This document shows, piece after piece, positions 17,615 to 47,635 of a stretch of DNA of 49,798 bases. Where the stretch lies: sequence record NC_101840.1; one strand, 5' to 3'. Within the stretch, counting starts at the first letter, position 1; every line of letters starts with the position of its first letter. Origin of the DNA: a phage. The notes under the pieces were generated by a model that saw only the letters and a program-made list of their open reading frames with translations, ran no database searches and had not been told where the DNA came from. Position numbers and translations under genes: made by a program.

Positions 17615-17634
17615 ATAGCACAATATGTTAAAGC
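17613..17634 (+). promoter_or_regulatory. conserved junction box variant (AAATAGCACAATATGTTAAAGC)
   Basis: degenerate copy; follows TAA stop of I-like gene; followed by hairpin GCGAAAACGGATTTTCGC. Confidence 0.4.
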
Positions 17635-17675
17635 GAAAACGGATTTTCGCTTTACAATTAATTAAGGAGGTGATC

Positions 17676-18152
17676 ATGTGGCGTGATATTTTTTATTATA
17701 ATGACGGTAAGTTATTTTGGGCTGTAGACGTAGGAAGAAGGATAAAGAAAGGAAGTGAGGCAGGAAGCGTAAGCAAAAGCAAGAAGAGTGGAGAAAGGGT
17801 TAGAATATCAATTGATGGAGAAAGATACTACAGGAGCAGGATAGTTTGGGAAATTCATAATGGAGAAATACCGCATGGAATGCAAGTTGATCACATAGAT
17901 CACAACACAATGAACGACAATATTTCAAACTTAAGACTTGTTAGAATGAGTGTTAACAACAAGAATAAGTCGCTTTACAGGAACAGCAAGACGGGAATTA
18001 CTGGGGTAAACTTTAGTCGCGGAAAATGGATTGCAAGAGCAAAGATTGATGGTGTTAGGCATGAATTTTACTTTGATTCATTTCAGGATGCGGCAGAAAA
18101 GAGGATAGAGATTGAAGTTTTAAACAAATTCCACATAAACCACGGAAAGTAG
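17676..18152 (+). CDS. HNH homing endonuclease with AP2-like DNA-binding domain
   Basis: HIDHNTMNDNISNLRL (HNH) motif and C-terminal GVNF...W...I AP2-like segment; AAGGAGG RBS; start from internal ATG of track ORF 17625. Confidence 0.75.
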   Translation: MWRDIFYYNDGKLFWAVDVGRRIKKGSEAGSVSKSKKSGERVRISIDGERYYRSRIVWEIHNGEIPHGMQVDHIDHNTMNDNISNLRLVRMSVNNKNKSLYRNSKTGITGVNFSRGKWIARAKIDGVRHEFYFDSFQDAAEKRIEIEVLNKFHINHGK

Positions 18153-34453: not shown

Positions 34454-34685
34454 GCAAGGTAGAGAGGCGGTATGGAATCACGCTAAAGAATGCGGAATAG
34501 CCGACGATATAAAGAAGATCGCGCAATACTTTGATATTGCAGATGTGAGCATAATTAGCGGAGATAAGATGACTTTCCTCAAGGAAAGGCCGCGAAAAAT
34601 GGTAAGAGTTCCAGCAGTTCCAACAAAAATTGATTTCAAAGAGGCAATGGCTAAAATCCGAGAGCCTCGCAAATATTATAAATGA
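34443..34685 (+). CDS. hypothetical protein (80 aa)
   Basis: internal ATG of track ORF 34422..34685 overlapping upstream stop. Confidence 0.4.
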   Translation: MKVEQGREAVWNHAKECGIADDIKKIAQYFDIADVSIISGDKMTFLKERPRKMVRVPAVPTKIDFKEAMAKIREPRKYYK

Positions 34686-34779
34686 GGATAGTTATCATGT
34701 GGCGCTTGTTTGTTCTACCGTTACCCGTTATCATCGCTGTTACAGTTATGTACCATATAGTGATGAGATAGGTAGCAGA

Positions 34780-35895
34780 ATGAAAAATGTAAAAATTACA
34801 GATGAGCAATTCAAGATCGAACGGGCGGCGGGTAAGACATATAAACAGATCGCTCAAGAGTACGGAATGAATGTGAGAAGCGTCGAGCGTCGCGCGGCGC
34901 GACTTGCAAAGCAAGGCCAAGTATCCACAATTGGAGCGCCTGGTTTTGGCGTTCATGGTGAGTCAGTAATGACTGACAAAGAAGGCAACATAATCCTAAA
35001 GTGGACTAAAACCAGCAAGGATAAAGAGCAATTAGAAGCATTAATGCGCGCAGCAATGGAGGCATTTAGCGAGGAAGTGCCGCGATTAGATCCGGTTCCA
35101 TTACAGGAGCGCGACTATAACGAAACGCTTTCCTTGTATCCGATCTTTGACATGCACTTAGGCGCTATGGCCCATAAGCACGAATGCGGCGAAAATTGGG
35201 ATACTGCCACGGCAGAGCGCGTTATGAATAACTTTATTGACTATGCTTTAATGTGCGCACCGGATAGCGAAAAGGCTGTCATCCTGATTGGTGGCGATAT
35301 GCTGCATAGCGACGGCCTGGAGGCGGTTACACCTGCAAGCGGTCACGTACTGGATCAAGATAGTCGATATGCAAAATTGGTTTACGTTGCCATCCGTGCA
35401 ATGCGACGCGCAATCAATAAAATGTTGTTAAAGCATAAACATGTTGAAGTCCAGATCGTAGAGGGCAATCATGACCAATCAGGAATGATTTGGCTGCGCG
35501 CAGCAATGGCGGCAGCATATGAAAACGAGCCGCGCGTTTACGTTGATGTTTCACCTCGCGTTGTGCACCACACGCAATACGGAAAAACTTTCCTTGCGTA
35601 CCATCACGGGCACACAGTGCGTAAACCGGAGACTTTGCTAATGATGTGCGCGTCAGATTGGCGGGAGGACTTCGGAAACTCAAAAACGATGTATGCGCAC
35701 GTAGGGCACTGGCATCACCAGACCGTAACGGAAACGTCGCTTGGCATCGTGGAAGTACATAGCACCCTGGCGGCAAAAGACGCATACGCAGCGCGCGGTG
35801 GCTGGCGATCTCGACGCCGTGCGGCGGTTATCATTTACGACAAAGAGCATGGAGAGGTTGGGCGATTTGTTCACTATCCAGAAATGATGAATTGA
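34780..35895 (+). CDS. calcineurin-like metallophosphoesterase with N-terminal HTH-like domain
   Basis: DxH (FDMHLG), GDxxD (GGDMLHSD), GNHD, GH and GHxH (VGHWHH) motifs; start from internal ATG of track ORF 34630. Confidence 0.6.
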   Translation: MKNVKITDEQFKIERAAGKTYKQIAQEYGMNVRSVERRAARLAKQGQVSTIGAPGFGVHGESVMTDKEGNIILKWTKTSKDKEQLEALMRAAMEAFSEEVPRLDPVPLQERDYNETLSLYPIFDMHLGAMAHKHECGENWDTATAERVMNNFIDYALMCAPDSEKAVILIGGDMLHSDGLEAVTPASGHVLDQDSRYAKLVYVAIRAMRRAINKMLLKHKHVEVQIVEGNHDQSGMIWLRAAMAAAYENEPRVYVDVSPRVVHHTQYGKTFLAYHHGHTVRKPETLLMMCASDWREDFGNSKTMYAHVGHWHHQTVTETSLGIVEVHSTLAAKDAYAARGGWRSRRRAAVIIYDKEHGEVGRFVHYPEMMN

Positions 35896-44072: not shown

Positions 44073-44100
44073 TTGACACGCACCAAATAGCTTTTATAAT
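44073..44100 (+). promoter_or_regulatory. consensus sigma70 promoter (TTGACA-N16-TATAAT) for rightward early operon
   Basis: perfect -35 and -10 hexamers about 30 nt upstream of ATG 44132. Confidence 0.6.
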
Positions 44101-44131
44101 GCGCCAACAGTCAACAACTGGAGGAAAGGAA

Positions 44132-44596
44132 ATGGAACAGAAGACCACTAAGGACTATTGCGATTGGCTTCGCGAGCTTGGTCGCCGCCTGGCTAGTGGC
44201 GATATTGAAGAGTATAAAATGTCACTAATTGACCTGGCCGGAATGTTAAGCGGTGACGACTGCTACAAGATCACGCGCAGTTCATCCTACAGCCGGACCA
44301 TTATCAACCGCGTTCCAGAAGTAAGGGCCGCAGGTCGGGTAAGCATCAAGGTAGAGGAAACGGAAGATGATAAATTTTACGTTTTCCGCATGGTCCGCGA
44401 ATCGAAAAGGAAAATCATCACACCCGAAGAATTGCCAGCCATCAAGGCGAGGGCGATCAAAAAGTTTGCCGATCGCTTACTGGCAGCAATCCCGAATATC
44501 GTTGACCTGGAAGGGGATAAACTGGCTGGGGCTTGCGAGGGCGTAAGCCGCTACCAGGATATGATCCGCGAAATCATCAAAGAGGAAGAGCAATGA
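44132..44596 (+). CDS. hypothetical early protein (154 aa)
   Basis: internal ATG of track ORF 44099 with GGAGGAAAGGAA RBS. Confidence 0.5.
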   Translation: MEQKTTKDYCDWLRELGRRLASGDIEEYKMSLIDLAGMLSGDDCYKITRSSSYSRTIINRVPEVRAAGRVSIKVEETEDDKFYVFRMVRESKRKIITPEELPAIKARAIKKFADRLLAAIPNIVDLEGDKLAGACEGVSRYQDMIREIIKEEEQ

Positions 44597-44934: not shown

Positions 44935-45156
44935 ATGTACATTAAAAAGAAGATGAAATGCGTTTCCGTTAACTATGCTTGCTCTGGCATGTTCAAGCCT
45001 GGCGAAATCTATACGGCGCAAAAACTGAAATCATCAACCGGATCTTTTTACGTGAGCAATAGTAAGGGGCATCGCATGTTCCTGAACGGCGGCGAAGGCA
45101 CTAAGGTTATGGCACACGCTATGGTAATGGCTGAATTTGAGGAAGTGAAACAATGA
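44935..45156 (+). CDS. hypothetical protein, paralogue 1 of a tandem pair (73 aa)
   Basis: AAGGAG RBS; shares PG..Y...G.FLNGE.GT...A...AEFEEVK pattern with next ORF. Confidence 0.45.
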   Translation: MYIKKKMKCVSVNYACSGMFKPGEIYTAQKLKSSTGSFYVSNSKGHRMFLNGGEGTKVMAHAMVMAEFEEVKQ

Positions 45157-45398
45157 TCATTGAAAACAATTTTCTTTGCGTTAAGAGCAATAGACCATTC
45201 TTCACGCCTGGCAAGGTGTACCAGGGCAAGAAGGACACAAGAGATGGTCACTCTTATCATGTTCACTGCAACAACGGATACAAGTTTTACCTTAACGGCG
45301 AGAATGGAACAGAGATCGTTGCGTTTGAAAACGTAGTTGCCGAGTTTGAGCAGATTACAGACGCGGAATTTGAGGAAGTGAAAGATGAAAACAAATAA
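45153..45398 (+). CDS. hypothetical protein, paralogue 2 of a tandem pair (81 aa)
   Basis: ATGA coupling; sequence similarity to 44935..45156. Confidence 0.45.
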   Translation: MIIENNFLCVKSNRPFFTPGKVYQGKKDTRDGHSYHVHCNNGYKFYLNGENGTEIVAFENVVAEFEQITDAEFEEVKDENK

Positions 45399-45617: not shown

Positions 45618-46157
45618 ATGAAAAAATACACTTTCGAACTATGGGGCAAGAAGTACGAATTAATCACCAGCAAGCCGATTGTTATCGTTGACCTGGACGG
45701 CACACTATCGGACGGATCGCATCGTTTGCATTTGCTGCCAACTGAAAACTTGCACCTTACGGAATCGTGGAGCGAATTTAACAGGGCCGCAGCAGGAGAT
45801 TCACCGATTAAAAGCACGATCGCGATTGTTAACGGTTTGTGGGTGTCTGGATTTGCCATCGTCATCTTGACCGGACGCAGCGACGAGGTGCGCTATGAAA
45901 CCTGCAAATGGTTGAATGAGAGCGGCGTGAAGTTTGACGAAATCATCATGCGCCGCCAGGAGGACAACCGAAAGGATACGGTTATTAAAGAAGAAGCCTT
46001 GCGCGCTATTGGCCTGGACAATATTGTTTGCGCCTTTGACGATTCGCCGAACGTTGTTAAGCACTTCCGCAGCCTGGGAATCACAACCTATCAGGTCACG
46101 GAATACGACAAGCCACACGCTCACCTGCAATCTCACGGCGTGGAGTGTTTAAAATGA
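45618..46157 (+). CDS. HAD-superfamily phosphatase (polynucleotide 3'-phosphatase-like)
   Basis: motif I DLDGTL (DxDGT) near N-terminus, downstream conserved Thr/Lys/Asp-type motifs. Confidence 0.6.
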   Translation: MKKYTFELWGKKYELITSKPIVIVDLDGTLSDGSHRLHLLPTENLHLTESWSEFNRAAAGDSPIKSTIAIVNGLWVSGFAIVILTGRSDEVRYETCKWLNESGVKFDEIIMRRQEDNRKDTVIKEEALRAIGLDNIVCAFDDSPNVVKHFRSLGITTYQVTEYDKPHAHLQSHGVECLK

Positions 46158-46315
46158 CTTGGTTGCTTTTAATCTTTGTCACAAGTTACAACTCCGCAGC
46201 TATTGAGTCGCAGGAGTTCCACGGCGAATCAAGATGCCAGGAAGCGCGAAAGCAAGTTATTCTCCACATGTCAGATAGTGGGAAGGATGTAACAGCGTTA
46301 TGCGTTCGTAAATAG
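46154..46315 (+). CDS. hypothetical small protein (53 aa) with hydrophobic N-terminus
   Basis: ATGA overlap with upstream stop; its TAG stop lies inside the next box; below ORF-track size cutoff. Confidence 0.3.
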   Translation: MTWLLLIFVTSYNSAAIESQEFHGESRCQEARKQVILHMSDSGKDVTALCVRK

Positions 46316-46331
46316 CACTTTTTGCAAAAAA
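46310..46331 (+). promoter_or_regulatory. conserved junction box (variant), sense
   Basis: AAATAGCACTTTTTGCAAAAAAC; hairpin GGGCTT-GCTGTATAGT-AAGCCC follows. Confidence 0.5.
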
Positions 46332-46387
46332 CAGATCATCGGGCTTGCTGTATAGTAAGCCCATAAACAACAAACGAGGATTAAATC

Positions 46388-46651
46388 ATGGCTAACAAGA
46401 TCGAGTTTTTTAAAGCTGTAGACATTATCGACGGCGCGCCTAGCTTCTTTGCTATCCATTCTATTGACGGCAAGGATATTGGGTACAACGTTATCCGTCG
46501 AGATGGAATATCAAAAATTAGTGACCTGGTAGGCCATATTGTGTCAAACGGGAAATGCGCATGGCCCGATTCGCCACGAGAGCCGCGCCGCCGCGACATG
46601 GTAGAGCCTGTTCTGCTTTACACTCTGGTAGTAGAGGGAGAAAATAAATGA
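46388..46651 (+). CDS. hypothetical protein (87 aa)
   Basis: track ORF; GAGGA RBS. Confidence 0.45.
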   Translation: MANKIEFFKAVDIIDGAPSFFAIHSIDGKDIGYNVIRRDGISKISDLVGHIVSNGKCAWPDSPREPRRRDMVEPVLLYTLVVEGENK

Positions 46652-46833
46652 TTTTGTTACTTGCTTTTTTGGTTGTTTTTCTTTACATTTCAGGCTTATT
46701 CACGTTCCGCGCGTTTGTGAAATATTCTGGCACGACAGACAAGGACGATAAAATCGTTCTCGCTTTCTGGTTTGTTTGGGTGTGGTTAGCAATTTACGAG
46801 ATCATCAGAGACAAACAGAAATTTGAGTGGTGA
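46648..46833 (+). CDS. small membrane protein (61 aa)
   Basis: two predicted TM helices; ATGA coupling. Confidence 0.45.
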   Translation: MILLLAFLVVFLYISGLFTFRAFVKYSGTTDKDDKIVLAFWFVWVWLAIYEIIRDKQKFEW

Positions 46834-46892
46834 TTCTTGCTATGGCGCATTCATGCAGTGCGCCATGTTGAGAAAACCTAAAGGGGGAGACG

Positions 46893-47042
46893 ATGCGTAA
46901 CTTTGAAAAAATCATTACCAAAAAGAAGCGTCGCGGGTACGATGAGCATGTGGAGCTTGTGAAAAAGCAACGCAAGAAGCGCAACGAAGACAAGAAGCGC
47001 GGGAAAAAATTTAATGCGATTTTTCGCTATGGAGATCATTAA
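46893..47042 (+). CDS. hypothetical small basic protein (49 aa)
   Basis: AGGGGGAGA RBS; Lys/Arg-rich; below ORF-track size cutoff. Confidence 0.3.
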   Translation: MRNFEKIITKKKRRGYDEHVELVKKQRKKRNEDKKRGKKFNAIFRYGDH

Positions 47043-47044
47043 TC

Positions 47045-47635
47045 ATGAAACGAGACATTATCATCCTTAATGGGCCGCCAGGTTGCGGGAAGGACACTAT
47101 TGCAGCTTACCTAACGGGCCATCGTTACCCAGCGGTTAAGGCGTCATTCAAACAGCCGATGTTCGATATTGCGTTTTCCATGCTTGGCCCGACTCGATAT
47201 GATGAGTTTATTGACCTGTACAACGACCGAGAGCAAAAGGAAAAGCCTCAAGTTATCTTAGGCGGCAAGTCACCTCGACAATTCATGATCTGGATTAGCG
47301 AGGATGTAATGAAGCCAGTCTTTGGGGATCACTATTTCGGGCGTCGAATGGTTGAAGAGATTCACGAGATGTACCGAGATTTAGCGGTTGTGATCAGCGA
47401 TGGAGGATTCCCCGAAGAAATCAAGCCGCTCGTTAAGGCGGGGCATGAGGTGCATATTTGCCGATTGCATCGCGACGGCTTCACGTTTGCTGGCGATTCG
47501 AGAGACTACATTGACCTGAGCGGTTATCACTATCGAATCCATCACTATGACTTCCACTTGCAGGACGGCAAGCCGGAACTGGCTGTAAACGAGATCGTCA
47601 ATGCTGTCAAATGGAAGCACACAAAGATTAAATAG
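47045..47635 (+). CDS. P-loop kinase (polynucleotide-kinase-like or nucleotide kinase)
   Basis: Walker A GPPGCGKDT at residues 10-18; size 196 aa. Confidence 0.6.
   Translation: MKRDIIILNGPPGCGKDTIAAYLTGHRYPAVKASFKQPMFDIAFSMLGPTRYDEFIDLYNDREQKEKPQVILGGKSPRQFMIWISEDVMKPVFGDHYFGRRMVEEIHEMYRDLAVVISDGGFPEEIKPLVKAGHEVHICRLHRDGFTFAGDSRDYIDLSGYHYRIHHYDFHLQDGKPELAVNEIVNAVKWKHTKIK

What the first reader, a model, noticed from the sequence alone, without database searches (positions are those of the whole stretch)
45618..47635. Split polynucleotide-kinase-like pair: HAD phosphatase and P-loop kinase separated by four small ORFs
A HAD phosphatase (DLDGTL motif, 45618-46157) and a P-loop kinase (GPPGCGKDT, 47045-47635) resemble the two halves of T4-type polynucleotide kinase/phosphatase, but they are separate genes in reversed order, about 900 bp apart, and no RNA ligase gene is evident. 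They may act in nucleic-acid end healing, possibly countering a host nuclease defence, or in nucleotide metabolism.
Basis: partly seen in the sequence, partly recalled or inferred. Interest (0 to 1): 0.45.

Follow-up and report, generated by a model that had tools for sequence, protein, structure and literature searches.

The report
Phage 3'-phosphatase and dNMP kinase pair
Two early genes of a T1-like coliphage encode a phosphatase related to the phosphatase half of T4 polynucleotide kinase and a deoxynucleotide-monophosphate kinase; this is a conserved, already annotated pair that most likely feeds the phage's DNA precursor supply, and it is not a split polynucleotide kinase.

Summary
Both genes, their motifs, the 888-bp gap with four small ORFs and the absence of any ligase were confirmed. 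The window is almost a whole Drexlerviridae (Warwickvirus-like) genome, 98-99% identical to published phages. In those phages the two genes are already annotated as 'polynucleotide kinase (partial)/kinase-phosphatase' and 'dNMP kinase'.

The 179-aa HAD protein is a genuine T4-Pnkp-type phosphatase domain (Pfam HAD_PNKP E 3.5e-21). The five T4 active-site residues named in PMC3592404 are all retained, Ser211 as Thr. Its best fold matches are Pnkp1 and T4 Pnkp.

In 70 of 80 related viral loci the phosphatase lies upstream of the kinase on the same strand, and in 25 of them the two genes abut. The small ORFs are therefore insertions into an older two-gene cassette. In other phage lineages the kinase sits next to an NT5C-like deoxynucleotidase or a dUTPase.

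The most likely role is deoxynucleotide salvage from degraded host DNA. This is ordinary and already known, so interest is low.

The parts
44073..44100 (+). Perfect sigma-70 consensus promoter (TTGACA-16-TATAAT) at the head of the + strand early gene cluster that contains both genes
   Evidence: 12 of 12 matches. It lies directly upstream of the first + strand ORF at 44099. It is a consensus match only; function was not tested.
45618..46157 (+). Stand-alone HAD (DxDxT) phosphatase of the T4 Pnkp phosphatase-domain type, 179 aa, with no kinase domain and no Walker A motif
46154..46315 (+). Small ORF 1 (53 aa from the ATG) with a hydrophobic, signal-peptide-like N terminus; its start overlaps the end of the phosphatase gene
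   Evidence: phrog_5579 (unknown function) E 3.6e-9. Annotated as a CDS in Tuinin. In many close relatives this position instead holds a 57-aa C-terminal extension fused to the phosphatase.
46388..46651 (+). Small ORF 2 (87 aa), function unknown
   Evidence: phrog_25318 E 5.3e-6. Annotated as a CDS in Tuinin.
46648..46833 (+). Small ORF 3 (61 aa), hydrophobic and probably a membrane protein
   Evidence: phrog_9755 E 7e-21. Sequence.
46893..47042 (+). Small ORF 4 (49 aa), very basic (rich in Lys and Arg)
   Evidence: It has only a weak match to T7 protein 1.1 (PF08200, E 0.003), which is below the Pfam cut-off.
47045..47635 (+). P-loop deoxynucleoside-monophosphate kinase of the T5 Dnk / T4 gp1 family, 196 aa
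34792..35895 (+). 'DNA repair exonuclease' (phrog_704 type). In other phages it lies directly upstream of the phosphatase-kinase pair; here it is about 10 kb away.
   Evidence: tblastn with the F20/PP99 exonucleases gives 61% identity at 34792-35886. Synteny is shown. This ORF itself has no Pfam hit.
46341..46362 (+). Stable RNA hairpin (9-bp stem) in the gap between small ORFs 1 and 2, with no U tract
   Evidence: -14.8 kcal/mol, z -2.7. It was not called a terminator.
46834..46874 (+). Stable RNA hairpin (17 pairs with an internal bulge) in the gap between small ORFs 3 and 4, with no U tract
   Evidence: -22 kcal/mol, z -3.1. It was not called a terminator.

Best explanation
The two genes form a conserved early-gene cassette for deoxynucleotide supply. 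The downstream gene encodes a dNMP kinase of the T5 Dnk / T4 gp1 family. It converts dNMPs released from degraded host DNA into dNDPs, which host Ndk then converts to dNTPs. The upstream gene encodes a stand-alone homologue of the T4 Pnkp phosphatase domain. It is predicted to work through an aspartyl-phosphate intermediate on D25, with D27 as the acid/base, K124 and T85 contacting the phosphate, and D142 binding Mg2+. Its inferred job is to remove 3'-phosphates from deoxynucleotides: 3'-dNMPs, and/or 3'-phosphorylated oligonucleotide and DNA ends left by nucleases. That would let breakdown products be digested further by the phage exonuclease and passed to the kinase. Both genes appear to be transcribed early from a consensus sigma-70 promoter. 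The four small ORFs between them are lineage-specific insertions into an ancestrally adjacent gene pair. Shown here: the family and fold assignments, the catalytic-residue conservation and the synteny. Inferred: the substrates, and the idea that the two enzymes cooperate in salvage.

For: Phosphatase. It matches HAD_PNKP at 76 bits. The T4 catalytic residues are conserved (roles from PMC3592404). T4 Pnkp hydrolyses 3'-dNMPs efficiently, at 24 per second for 3'-dTMP (PMC3592404).

Linkage. In 70 of 80 IMG/VR loci that carry the kinase, the phosphatase is upstream on the same strand. The gap is 50 bp or less in 25 of them. In three lineages the order is exonuclease, then phosphatase, then kinase, with 4-bp overlaps: Webervirus F20, Gajwadongvirus PP99 and Ahphunavirus P2.

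Context in other lineages is mononucleotide metabolism. In Vequintavirinae and Vibrio phage qdvp001 the kinase is followed by an overlapping NT5C-like HAD deoxynucleotidase; the scores are 27.3, 26.2 and 29.2 bits against a Pfam cut-off of 24.8, and 17.7 bits for KPP-1. In Chaseviridae the kinase is followed by dUTPase. Thymidylate synthase and a gene annotated as nucleotide pyrophosphohydrolase lie nearby in some of these phages.

Literature. T1 and TLS degrade host DNA and reuse its nucleotides, and TLS gp09 and gp14 are this same pair (PMC11447400). The KanT1 paper proposes that the two genes enhance nucleotide supply (PMC13164509).
Against: No member of either Drexlerviridae subfamily has been assayed, so the substrates are inferred from homologues that are only 16-30% identical. 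A 3'-phosphatase makes deoxynucleosides from 3'-dNMPs, and E. coli salvages those poorly apart from thymidine, so the logic of the pathway is incomplete. The T4 Pnkp phosphatase domain acts on polynucleotide ends in vivo, so a DNA- or RNA-end role for this protein is equally compatible with its sequence. The kinase occurs without the phosphatase in T5, in Chaseviridae and in at least three IMG/VR loci with full 10-kb upstream flanks, so the coupling is not obligatory. The phosphatase segment at residues 30-62, the flap/cap region that would define substrate access, was modelled with pLDDT below 50, so it gives no information on substrate size. The 80 surveyed loci are mostly fairly close relatives (at least 44% identity), so the synteny partly reflects shared descent.
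Confidence: 0.5

Rival explanations
1. The phosphatase is a DNA-end (or RNA-end) 3'-phosphatase that works on polynucleotides. It would unblock 3'-phosphate termini for the phage exonuclease, recombination, replication priming or host ligase. Its neighbourhood with the dNMP kinase would then reflect only shared membership of a DNA-metabolism module, not a shared pathway.
For: It is homologous to the T4 Pnkp and Pnkp1 phosphatase domains, which act on polynucleotide ends (PMC3592404). It lies directly downstream of the phrog_704 'DNA repair exonuclease' in 19 of 70 loci. In PP99-like phages the kinase is followed by a DNA ligase.
Against: The pair stays together and in the same order even when it sits far from the exonuclease, as in this window and in T1/TLS-like phages. 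In Vequintavirinae the position next to the kinase is held by a mononucleotide-type HAD phosphatase (NT5C-like). No 3'-phosphate-generating nuclease is known in this system.
Confidence: 0.27
2. One reading: the two proteins are the separated halves of a Pnkp-like end-healing system. The phosphatase would remove the 3'-phosphate and the kinase would phosphorylate the 5'-OH of broken RNA or DNA, which a host or phage ligase would then seal, countering a host nuclease defence.
For: The phosphatase is of the genuine Pnkp type. The gene pair is tightly conserved. In some Autographiviridae the order is phosphatase, kinase, ATP-dependent DNA ligase with overlapping genes. T4 Pnk itself accepts 3'-mononucleotides as kinase substrates (PMC2831316), so the boundary between nucleotide and polynucleotide kinases is not absolute.
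Confidence: 0.08
3. The phosphatase is a counter-defence enzyme that destroys a phosphorylated immune signalling nucleotide or a toxic nucleotide analogue. The kinase is unrelated to that role.
For: The only support is general. Both are early genes in a cluster of small accessory ORFs behind a strong host-type promoter, a genomic setting where counter-defence genes are often found (my own knowledge, not tested here).
Against: No similarity to any known counter-defence family was seen, although PADLOC or anti-defence libraries were not searched for this purpose. The gene is conserved across many phage families and sits in a replication/nucleotide context. The conserved pairing with a dNMP kinase would be left unexplained.
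Confidence: 0.05

Closest known systems
TLS gp09 ('PnkP, polynucleotide kinase, partial') and gp14 ('dNMP kinase'), with their counterparts in Drexlerviridae such as swan01, tonn, tinuso and Tuinin
   Same: These are the same two genes in the same order, with the same spacing of four intervening genes (gp09 to gp14). The DNA of the Warwickvirus records is 98-99% identical to the window. F20's annotation names T1p62 as the T1 counterpart of the kinase.
   Different: Nothing substantive. The set of small ORFs between the genes varies between relatives, with a gap of 0 to 2.2 kb. Many close relatives carry a 57-aa C-terminal extension on the phosphatase that is absent here.
Phosphatase domain of T4 polynucleotide kinase-phosphatase (PseT, residues 148-301; PDB 1LTQ, 5UJ0)
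   Different: It is a separate 179-aa protein with no fused kinase domain. It has an extra N-terminal beta-hairpin and a segment between motifs I and II that is 14 residues longer, highly conserved and poorly modelled. T4 Pnkp works with RNA ligase in tRNA repair, and no ligase is present here.
T4 gp1 and T5 Dnk deoxynucleoside monophosphate kinases
   Same: Same PHROG (139) and best fold match (1DEK). The GKDT P-loop is shared. So are the motif after strand 2 (FKxP here, FAKP in T5, LAGP in T4), the SPR motif, and the invariant Asp and Glu of the D-x-x-x-x-x-E segment.
   Different: Identity is only 15-27%. The protein is shorter (196 aa against 241-250 aa). This subclade has DGGF where T5 and T4 have D-V-R-F and D-T-R-Q. 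It also has its own RLxRxGxxFxGDSRxY lid-like motif. Its substrate range is untested.
Kinase plus NT5C-like HAD deoxynucleotidase pairs in Vequintavirinae (CarlMeissner, GAP31, KPP-1) and Vibrio phage qdvp001
   Same: A homologous kinase lies directly adjacent to, and overlaps, a small HAD phosphatase with DxDxT and DD motifs, within a nucleotide-metabolism neighbourhood.
   Different: The phosphatase belongs to a different HAD subfamily (PF06941, not PF25109). It lies downstream rather than upstream of the kinase. It shows no pairwise sequence similarity to the window's phosphatase.
Pnkp1 of the bacterial Pnkp1-Rnl-Hen1 RNA repair complex (PDB 4XRP)
   Different: Pnkp1 is a fused kinase-phosphatase that acts together with an RNA ligase and Hen1. 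None of those partners is present in the window.

Membership tests
T4 Pnkp-type HAD 3'-phosphatase domain (Pfam PF25109 HAD_PNKP) | DxDxT motif with a nucleophile Asp and an acid/base Asp (T4 D165, D167) | tested here: met
   D25-L-D27-G-T29 aligns with T4 D165-V-D167-G-T169 and is invariant in the family. Residue roles are from PMC3592404.
T4 Pnkp-type HAD 3'-phosphatase domain (Pfam PF25109 HAD_PNKP) | Phosphate-contacting Ser/Thr and Lys, and the Mg-binding Asp (T4 S211, K258, D278) | tested here: met
   T85 (in T-G-R) corresponds to S211, K124 to K258, and D141-D142 to D277-D278. R36, R87 and R112 also correspond to R176, R213 and R246.
T4 Pnkp-type HAD 3'-phosphatase domain (Pfam PF25109 HAD_PNKP) | Profile score above the curated threshold, and closest fold among HAD enzymes | tested here: met
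T4 Pnkp-type HAD 3'-phosphatase domain (Pfam PF25109 HAD_PNKP) | 3'-phosphomonoesterase activity on DNA, RNA or 3'-dNMP | not testable with these tools
   This needs an enzyme assay.
T4 Pnkp-type polynucleotide 5'-kinase domain | Sequence or fold similarity beyond the P-loop | tested here: not met
T4 Pnkp-type polynucleotide 5'-kinase domain | General-base Asp and 3'-phosphate-binding Arg after strand 2 (T4 D35, R38) | tested here: inconclusive
   By topology, the segment after strand 2 is S-F-K-Q-P-M-F, with F35, K36 and P38 invariant and no acidic residue. No residue-level structural superposition on T4 Pnk could be made. Residue roles are from PMC3592404 and PMC2831316.
T4 Pnkp-type polynucleotide 5'-kinase domain | Kinase and phosphatase on one polypeptide, with a partner ligase for sealing | tested here: not met
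   The genes are separate and 888 bp apart. No homologue of the phosphatase among 120 examined carries a Walker A motif. The window has no ligase.
Phage dNMP kinase family (PHROG 139; T5 Dnk, T4 gp1) | Profile membership together with characterised members | tested here: met
   The window protein scores E 7.4e-51 (residues 1-189 to profile positions 81-261). T5 Dnk scores E 1.4e-51 (residues 1-246 to positions 82-266).
Phage dNMP kinase family (PHROG 139; T5 Dnk, T4 gp1) | Fold closest to T4 dNMP kinase | tested here: met
Phage dNMP kinase family (PHROG 139; T5 Dnk, T4 gp1) | Shared motifs outside the P-loop | tested here: met
   GK(D)T, the motif after strand 2 (FKxP here, FAKP in T5, LAGP in T4), and S-P-R. 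R78, D119 and E125 are invariant across 15 sequences that include T5 Dnk and T4 gp1.
Phage dNMP kinase family (PHROG 139; T5 Dnk, T4 gp1) | ATP:dNMP phosphotransferase activity and its specificity | not testable with these tools
   This needs an enzyme assay. This subclade replaces the Arg of the T4/T5 D-x-R motif with Gly (DGGF), so its specificity may differ.

The most novel reading that the evidence does not exclude
The DGGF/GDSR subclade of dNMP-kinase-like proteins, which travels with a Pnkp-type 3'-phosphatase in 70 of the 80 related loci surveyed (sometimes also with an exonuclease and a DNA ligase), may have shifted its acceptor from 5'-dNMP phosphate to the 5'-OH of 3'-phosphorylated mono- or oligonucleotides. 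The pair would then be a functional Pnkp assembled from a non-homologous kinase. It could either repair 5'-OH/3'-P breaks or convert 3'-dNMPs from host DNA breakdown into usable 5'-dNMPs.
Probability: 0.08. Interest if true: 0.55.

Novelty: already known. Interest (0 to 1): 0.15.

Why it matters
It matters little as a discovery. Both genes are annotated in dozens of nearly identical published phages, and their likely contribution to nucleotide supply has already been suggested in print.

Two modest points have practical value. First, the widespread label 'polynucleotide kinase' for the 179-aa protein is misleading, because it is a phosphatase-only protein. Second, the phosphatase and the dNMP kinase form a cassette that keeps its order and strand across Drexlerviridae and Autographiviridae. 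In other lineages an unrelated deoxynucleotidase-type HAD phosphatase sits next to the kinase instead. This points to a mononucleotide-level role that nobody has tested biochemically.

T1-like phages are known to recycle host DNA, but the enzymes responsible have not been identified. This pair, together with the phrog_704 exonuclease, gives concrete candidates.

Tried and rejected
- Direct sequence searches of the kinase against PDB chains, with a single sequence and with a 27-sequence profile, found only P-loop matches. Classification therefore had to rest on PHROG profiles, hhalign and fold comparison.
- Pfam and NCBIfam gave nothing beyond the P-loop for the kinase.
- hhalign of the kinase family against T5 Dnk and T4 gp1 aligned only the N-terminal 49-74 columns. 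A 15-sequence MAFFT alignment with intermediate family members was needed to line up the C-terminal motifs.
- I tried to read the T4 dNMP kinase structure paper to map the dNMP-binding residues, but it is not held.
- Literature searches for a defence or counter-defence role of this kinase or phosphatase returned only incidental mentions, such as T7 gp1.7 and PNK used as a reagent.
- The phosphatase model was meant to show whether the segment at residues 30-62 forms a cap that would favour small substrates. That segment came out with pLDDT below 50, so nothing can be concluded.
- I considered whether the 57-aa C-terminal extension on the phosphatase of close relatives is related to the paralogous small ORFs upstream of it (44935-45398). 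No similarity was found.
- I considered whether the two intergenic hairpins are intrinsic terminators that split the operon. They lack U tracts and were not called by the scan.
- The representative-protein search and the metagenome and genome contig scans were not used, because the viral collection already answered the synteny question.
Full report
**What the window is.** The 5.8 kb around the finding is 98-99% identical to published Escherichia phages of Drexlerviridae, Tempevirinae, genus Warwickvirus (tinuso, Tuinin, swan01, tonn and others). In total 233 phage records match. The window is almost a whole genome of this type. It starts just before the terminase genes and ends inside the cluster of small + strand ORFs that precedes them. 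In the relatives the two genes are already annotated. The first carries labels such as 'putative kinase-phosphatase', 'PnkP, polynucleotide kinase, partial', '3'-phosphatase, 5'-polynucleotide kinase' or 'acid phosphatase'. The second is labelled 'dNMP kinase', 'ATP-binding protein' or 'P-loop NTPase'.

**The observation.** ORF 45618-46157 (179 aa) carries VDLDGTL. ORF 47045-47635 (196 aa) carries GPPGCGKDT. The genes are 888 bp apart, with four small + strand ORFs between them that match the four CDS annotated in Tuinin. The phosphatase gene lies upstream, which is the reverse of the domain order in T4 Pnkp. No ligase exists in the window. tblastn with T4 RnlA, T5 LigA and three phage ATP-dependent DNA ligases found nothing. 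The relative's annotation names none. The unassigned larger ORFs that were scanned are cement/decoration proteins, a helicase, an HNH endonuclease, a tail-fibre chaperone-like protein and DUF7174, and one of them matched nothing. There are no tRNA genes.

**The phosphatase.** The protein matches Pfam HAD_PNKP, the Pnkp phosphatase-domain model, at E 3.5e-21. The score is 76 bits against a cut-off of 27.6, over nearly the whole model. The next match is the class IIIB acid phosphatase family, and there are no sugar-phosphatase or 5'-nucleotidase models among the hits. Its PHROG is 415, at E 2.9e-65. By sequence, the only solved relatives are Pnkp1 of the Pnkp1-Rnl-Hen1 complex and T4 Pnkp, and in both cases only the phosphatase part matches. 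T4 PseT hits the window only through its residues 152-300.

An alignment with T4 PseT maps the residues as follows:
- D25 to D165 (nucleophile)
- D27 to D167 (acid/base)
- T85 to S211
- K124 to K258
- D142 to D278 (Mg2+)
- R36, R87 and R112 to R176, R213 and R246

**The kinase.** Pfam, NCBIfam and PDB sequence searches detect only the P-loop. The protein does match PHROG 139, 'deoxynucleoside monophosphate kinase', at E 7.4e-51. I fetched the biochemically characterised T5 Dnk, and it matches the same PHROG over the same profile range at E 1.4e-51.

Profile-profile comparison aligns the family with T5 Dnk (95% probability) and with T4 gp1 (74 columns) beyond the P-loop, but with T4 PseT only over 24 P-loop columns. 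A 15-sequence alignment spanning nine phage lineages plus T5 Dnk and T4 gp1 keeps G15, K16, R78, D119 and E125 invariant. After strand 2, where T4 Pnk has its general base Asp35 and Arg38 (PMC3592404, PMC2831316), this family has an invariant F-K-x-P with no acidic residue. T5 Dnk has A-K-P and T4 gp1 has A-G-P at the same place.

It does.

**Are the two genes linked?** Yes. I fetched 80 IMG/VR loci that carry the kinase. In 70 of them the phosphatase is present, always upstream and always on the same strand. The gaps are distributed as follows:
- 50 bp or less: 25 loci
- 51-250 bp: 14 loci
- 251-1000 bp: 19 loci
- more than 1 kb: 12 loci, up to 2.2 kb

The identities of the two proteins to the window's copies are correlated (r 0.87). 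In Webervirus F20, Gajwadongvirus PP99 and Ahphunavirus P2 the order is exonuclease or metallophosphoesterase, then phosphatase, then kinase, with 4-bp overlaps. In PP99 an ATP-dependent DNA ligase follows. The arrangement in this window is therefore an old, translationally coupled two-gene cassette that has been pried apart by small accessory ORFs. The same exonuclease type is present in the window about 10 kb away. The coupling is not obligatory. At least three loci with complete 10-kb upstream flanks lack the phosphatase, and T5 and Chaseviridae carry the kinase alone.

**What the neighbours elsewhere say.** In three genera of Vequintavirinae and in Vibrio phage qdvp001, the kinase is followed by an overlapping gene for a different HAD phosphatase. 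That protein has DxDxT and DD motifs and matches the NT5C 5'(3')-deoxyribonucleotidase model. The scores are 27.3, 26.2 and 29.2 bits against a cut-off of 24.8, and 17.7 bits in KPP-1. Thymidylate synthase, or a gene annotated as nucleotide pyrophosphohydrolase, lies close by. In Chaseviridae the kinase is followed by dUTPase. In Lahexavirus it is preceded by a protein weakly similar to nucleoside 2-deoxyribosyltransferase, below the Pfam cut-off. The recurring partners of this kinase family are thus enzymes that act on mononucleotides. This argues that the Pnkp-type phosphatase in Drexlerviridae also serves deoxynucleotide metabolism. T4 Pnkp itself hydrolyses 3'-dNMPs efficiently, at 24 per second for 3'-dTMP (PMC3592404).

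**Most likely mechanism.** Both genes lie in a + strand cluster headed by a perfect sigma-70 consensus promoter at 44073-44100, with no predicted terminator between them. They are therefore probably early genes expressed by host RNA polymerase. T1 and TLS degrade the host chromosome and reuse its nucleotides, and the enzymes responsible are not known (PMC11447400). The best-supported reading has three steps:
1. The exonuclease and other nucleases reduce host DNA to nucleotides.
2. The phosphatase removes 3'-phosphates from 3'-dNMPs, oligonucleotides or DNA ends that would otherwise be dead ends.
3. The kinase converts 5'-dNMPs to dNDPs for host Ndk.

The KanT1 paper reached a similar view, namely that the genes 'enhance nucleotide supply' (PMC13164509). 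Family, fold, catalytic residues and synteny are shown here. Substrates and cooperation between the enzymes are inferred. I put this at about 0.5.

The main rival, at about 0.27, is that the phosphatase works on polynucleotide 3'-phosphate ends for the exonuclease, recombination or replication, and merely shares a module with the kinase. A true split Pnkp gets about 0.08, and a counter-defence nucleotide hydrolase about 0.05.

**Novelty and verdict.** The genes, their annotation and their proposed role are already in the literature and in dozens of near-identical GenBank records. The idea that made the finding interesting, a split Pnkp, fails for the kinase half. What remains of interest is small. 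The 'polynucleotide kinase' label is wrong. The phosphatase-kinase cassette is strongly conserved in order and strand. An unrelated deoxynucleotidase-type HAD occupies the position next to the kinase in other lineages. No member of either subfamily has been assayed. Interest is 0.15, and the finding is already known.

Noticed in passing
Kinase homologues P0060, P0061, P0088, P0098, P0099, P0105, P0109-P0111, P0113-P0116, P0120 (not the window's own protein, which ends ...KHTKIK at 47635): Fourteen of 120 homologues of the kinase end in an acidic stretch followed by I/L-P-W (for example ...EWADDIPW and ...EEPDEIPW). From my own knowledge, this resembles the C-terminal tip of bacterial SSB (DDDIPF), which recruits partner proteins. 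It could tether the kinase to proteins that bind the SSB tip.
   Followed up: partly
window 46140-46320; relatives P0121, P0136, P0154: In many 96%-identical relatives the phosphatase is 236-264 aa long because of an extra C-terminal module of about 57 aa. Some also have a Cys-rich insert (CEGEHC...CLRC). In this window the gene stops at 179 aa and is followed by a separate small ORF that starts with a signal-peptide-like segment.
   Followed up: partly
window 44935-45156 and 45153-45398: Two adjacent small ORFs just upstream of the phosphatase are paralogues (34% identity, E 1e-14). Their function is unknown.
   Followed up: partly
window 46341-46362 and 46834-46874: Two stable hairpins (-14.8 and -22 kcal/mol, z about -3) sit in two of the intergenic gaps between the phosphatase and kinase genes. 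Neither is followed by a U tract, so they are not classical terminators. They could be RNA processing or stability elements.
   Followed up: partly
window 44073-44100 and 44099-44596: A perfect TTGACA-16-TATAAT promoter directly precedes a 165-aa DUF7174 protein (Pfam E 4e-51), which is the first gene of the + strand early cluster.
   Followed up: no
window 17625-18152: An HNH endonuclease ORF (PF13392, E 1.3e-15) sits inside the tail gene module, between the tail protein genes. It is probably a homing endonuclease insertion.
   Followed up: no
window 46893-47042: The 49-aa, very basic ORF immediately upstream of the kinase has a weak match to phage T7 protein 1.1 (PF08200, E 0.003). The score is below the Pfam cut-off.
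   Followed up: no
window 34630-35895; L003:2342-3472: The conserved 'DNA repair exonuclease' (phrog_704), which precedes the phosphatase-kinase pair in other phages, matches no Pfam nuclease or metallophosphoesterase model. The F20 copy shows only a weak sigma-70 region 4-like N-terminal match, so its fold and activity are poorly defined.
   Followed up: partly
L007:14519-15246 (phage T5): In T5 the dNMP kinase gene lies next to spanin genes that are annotated as similar to T4 PseT.2 and PseT.3. In T4 those genes are the neighbours of pseT. This is probably coincidental but looks odd.
   Followed up: no
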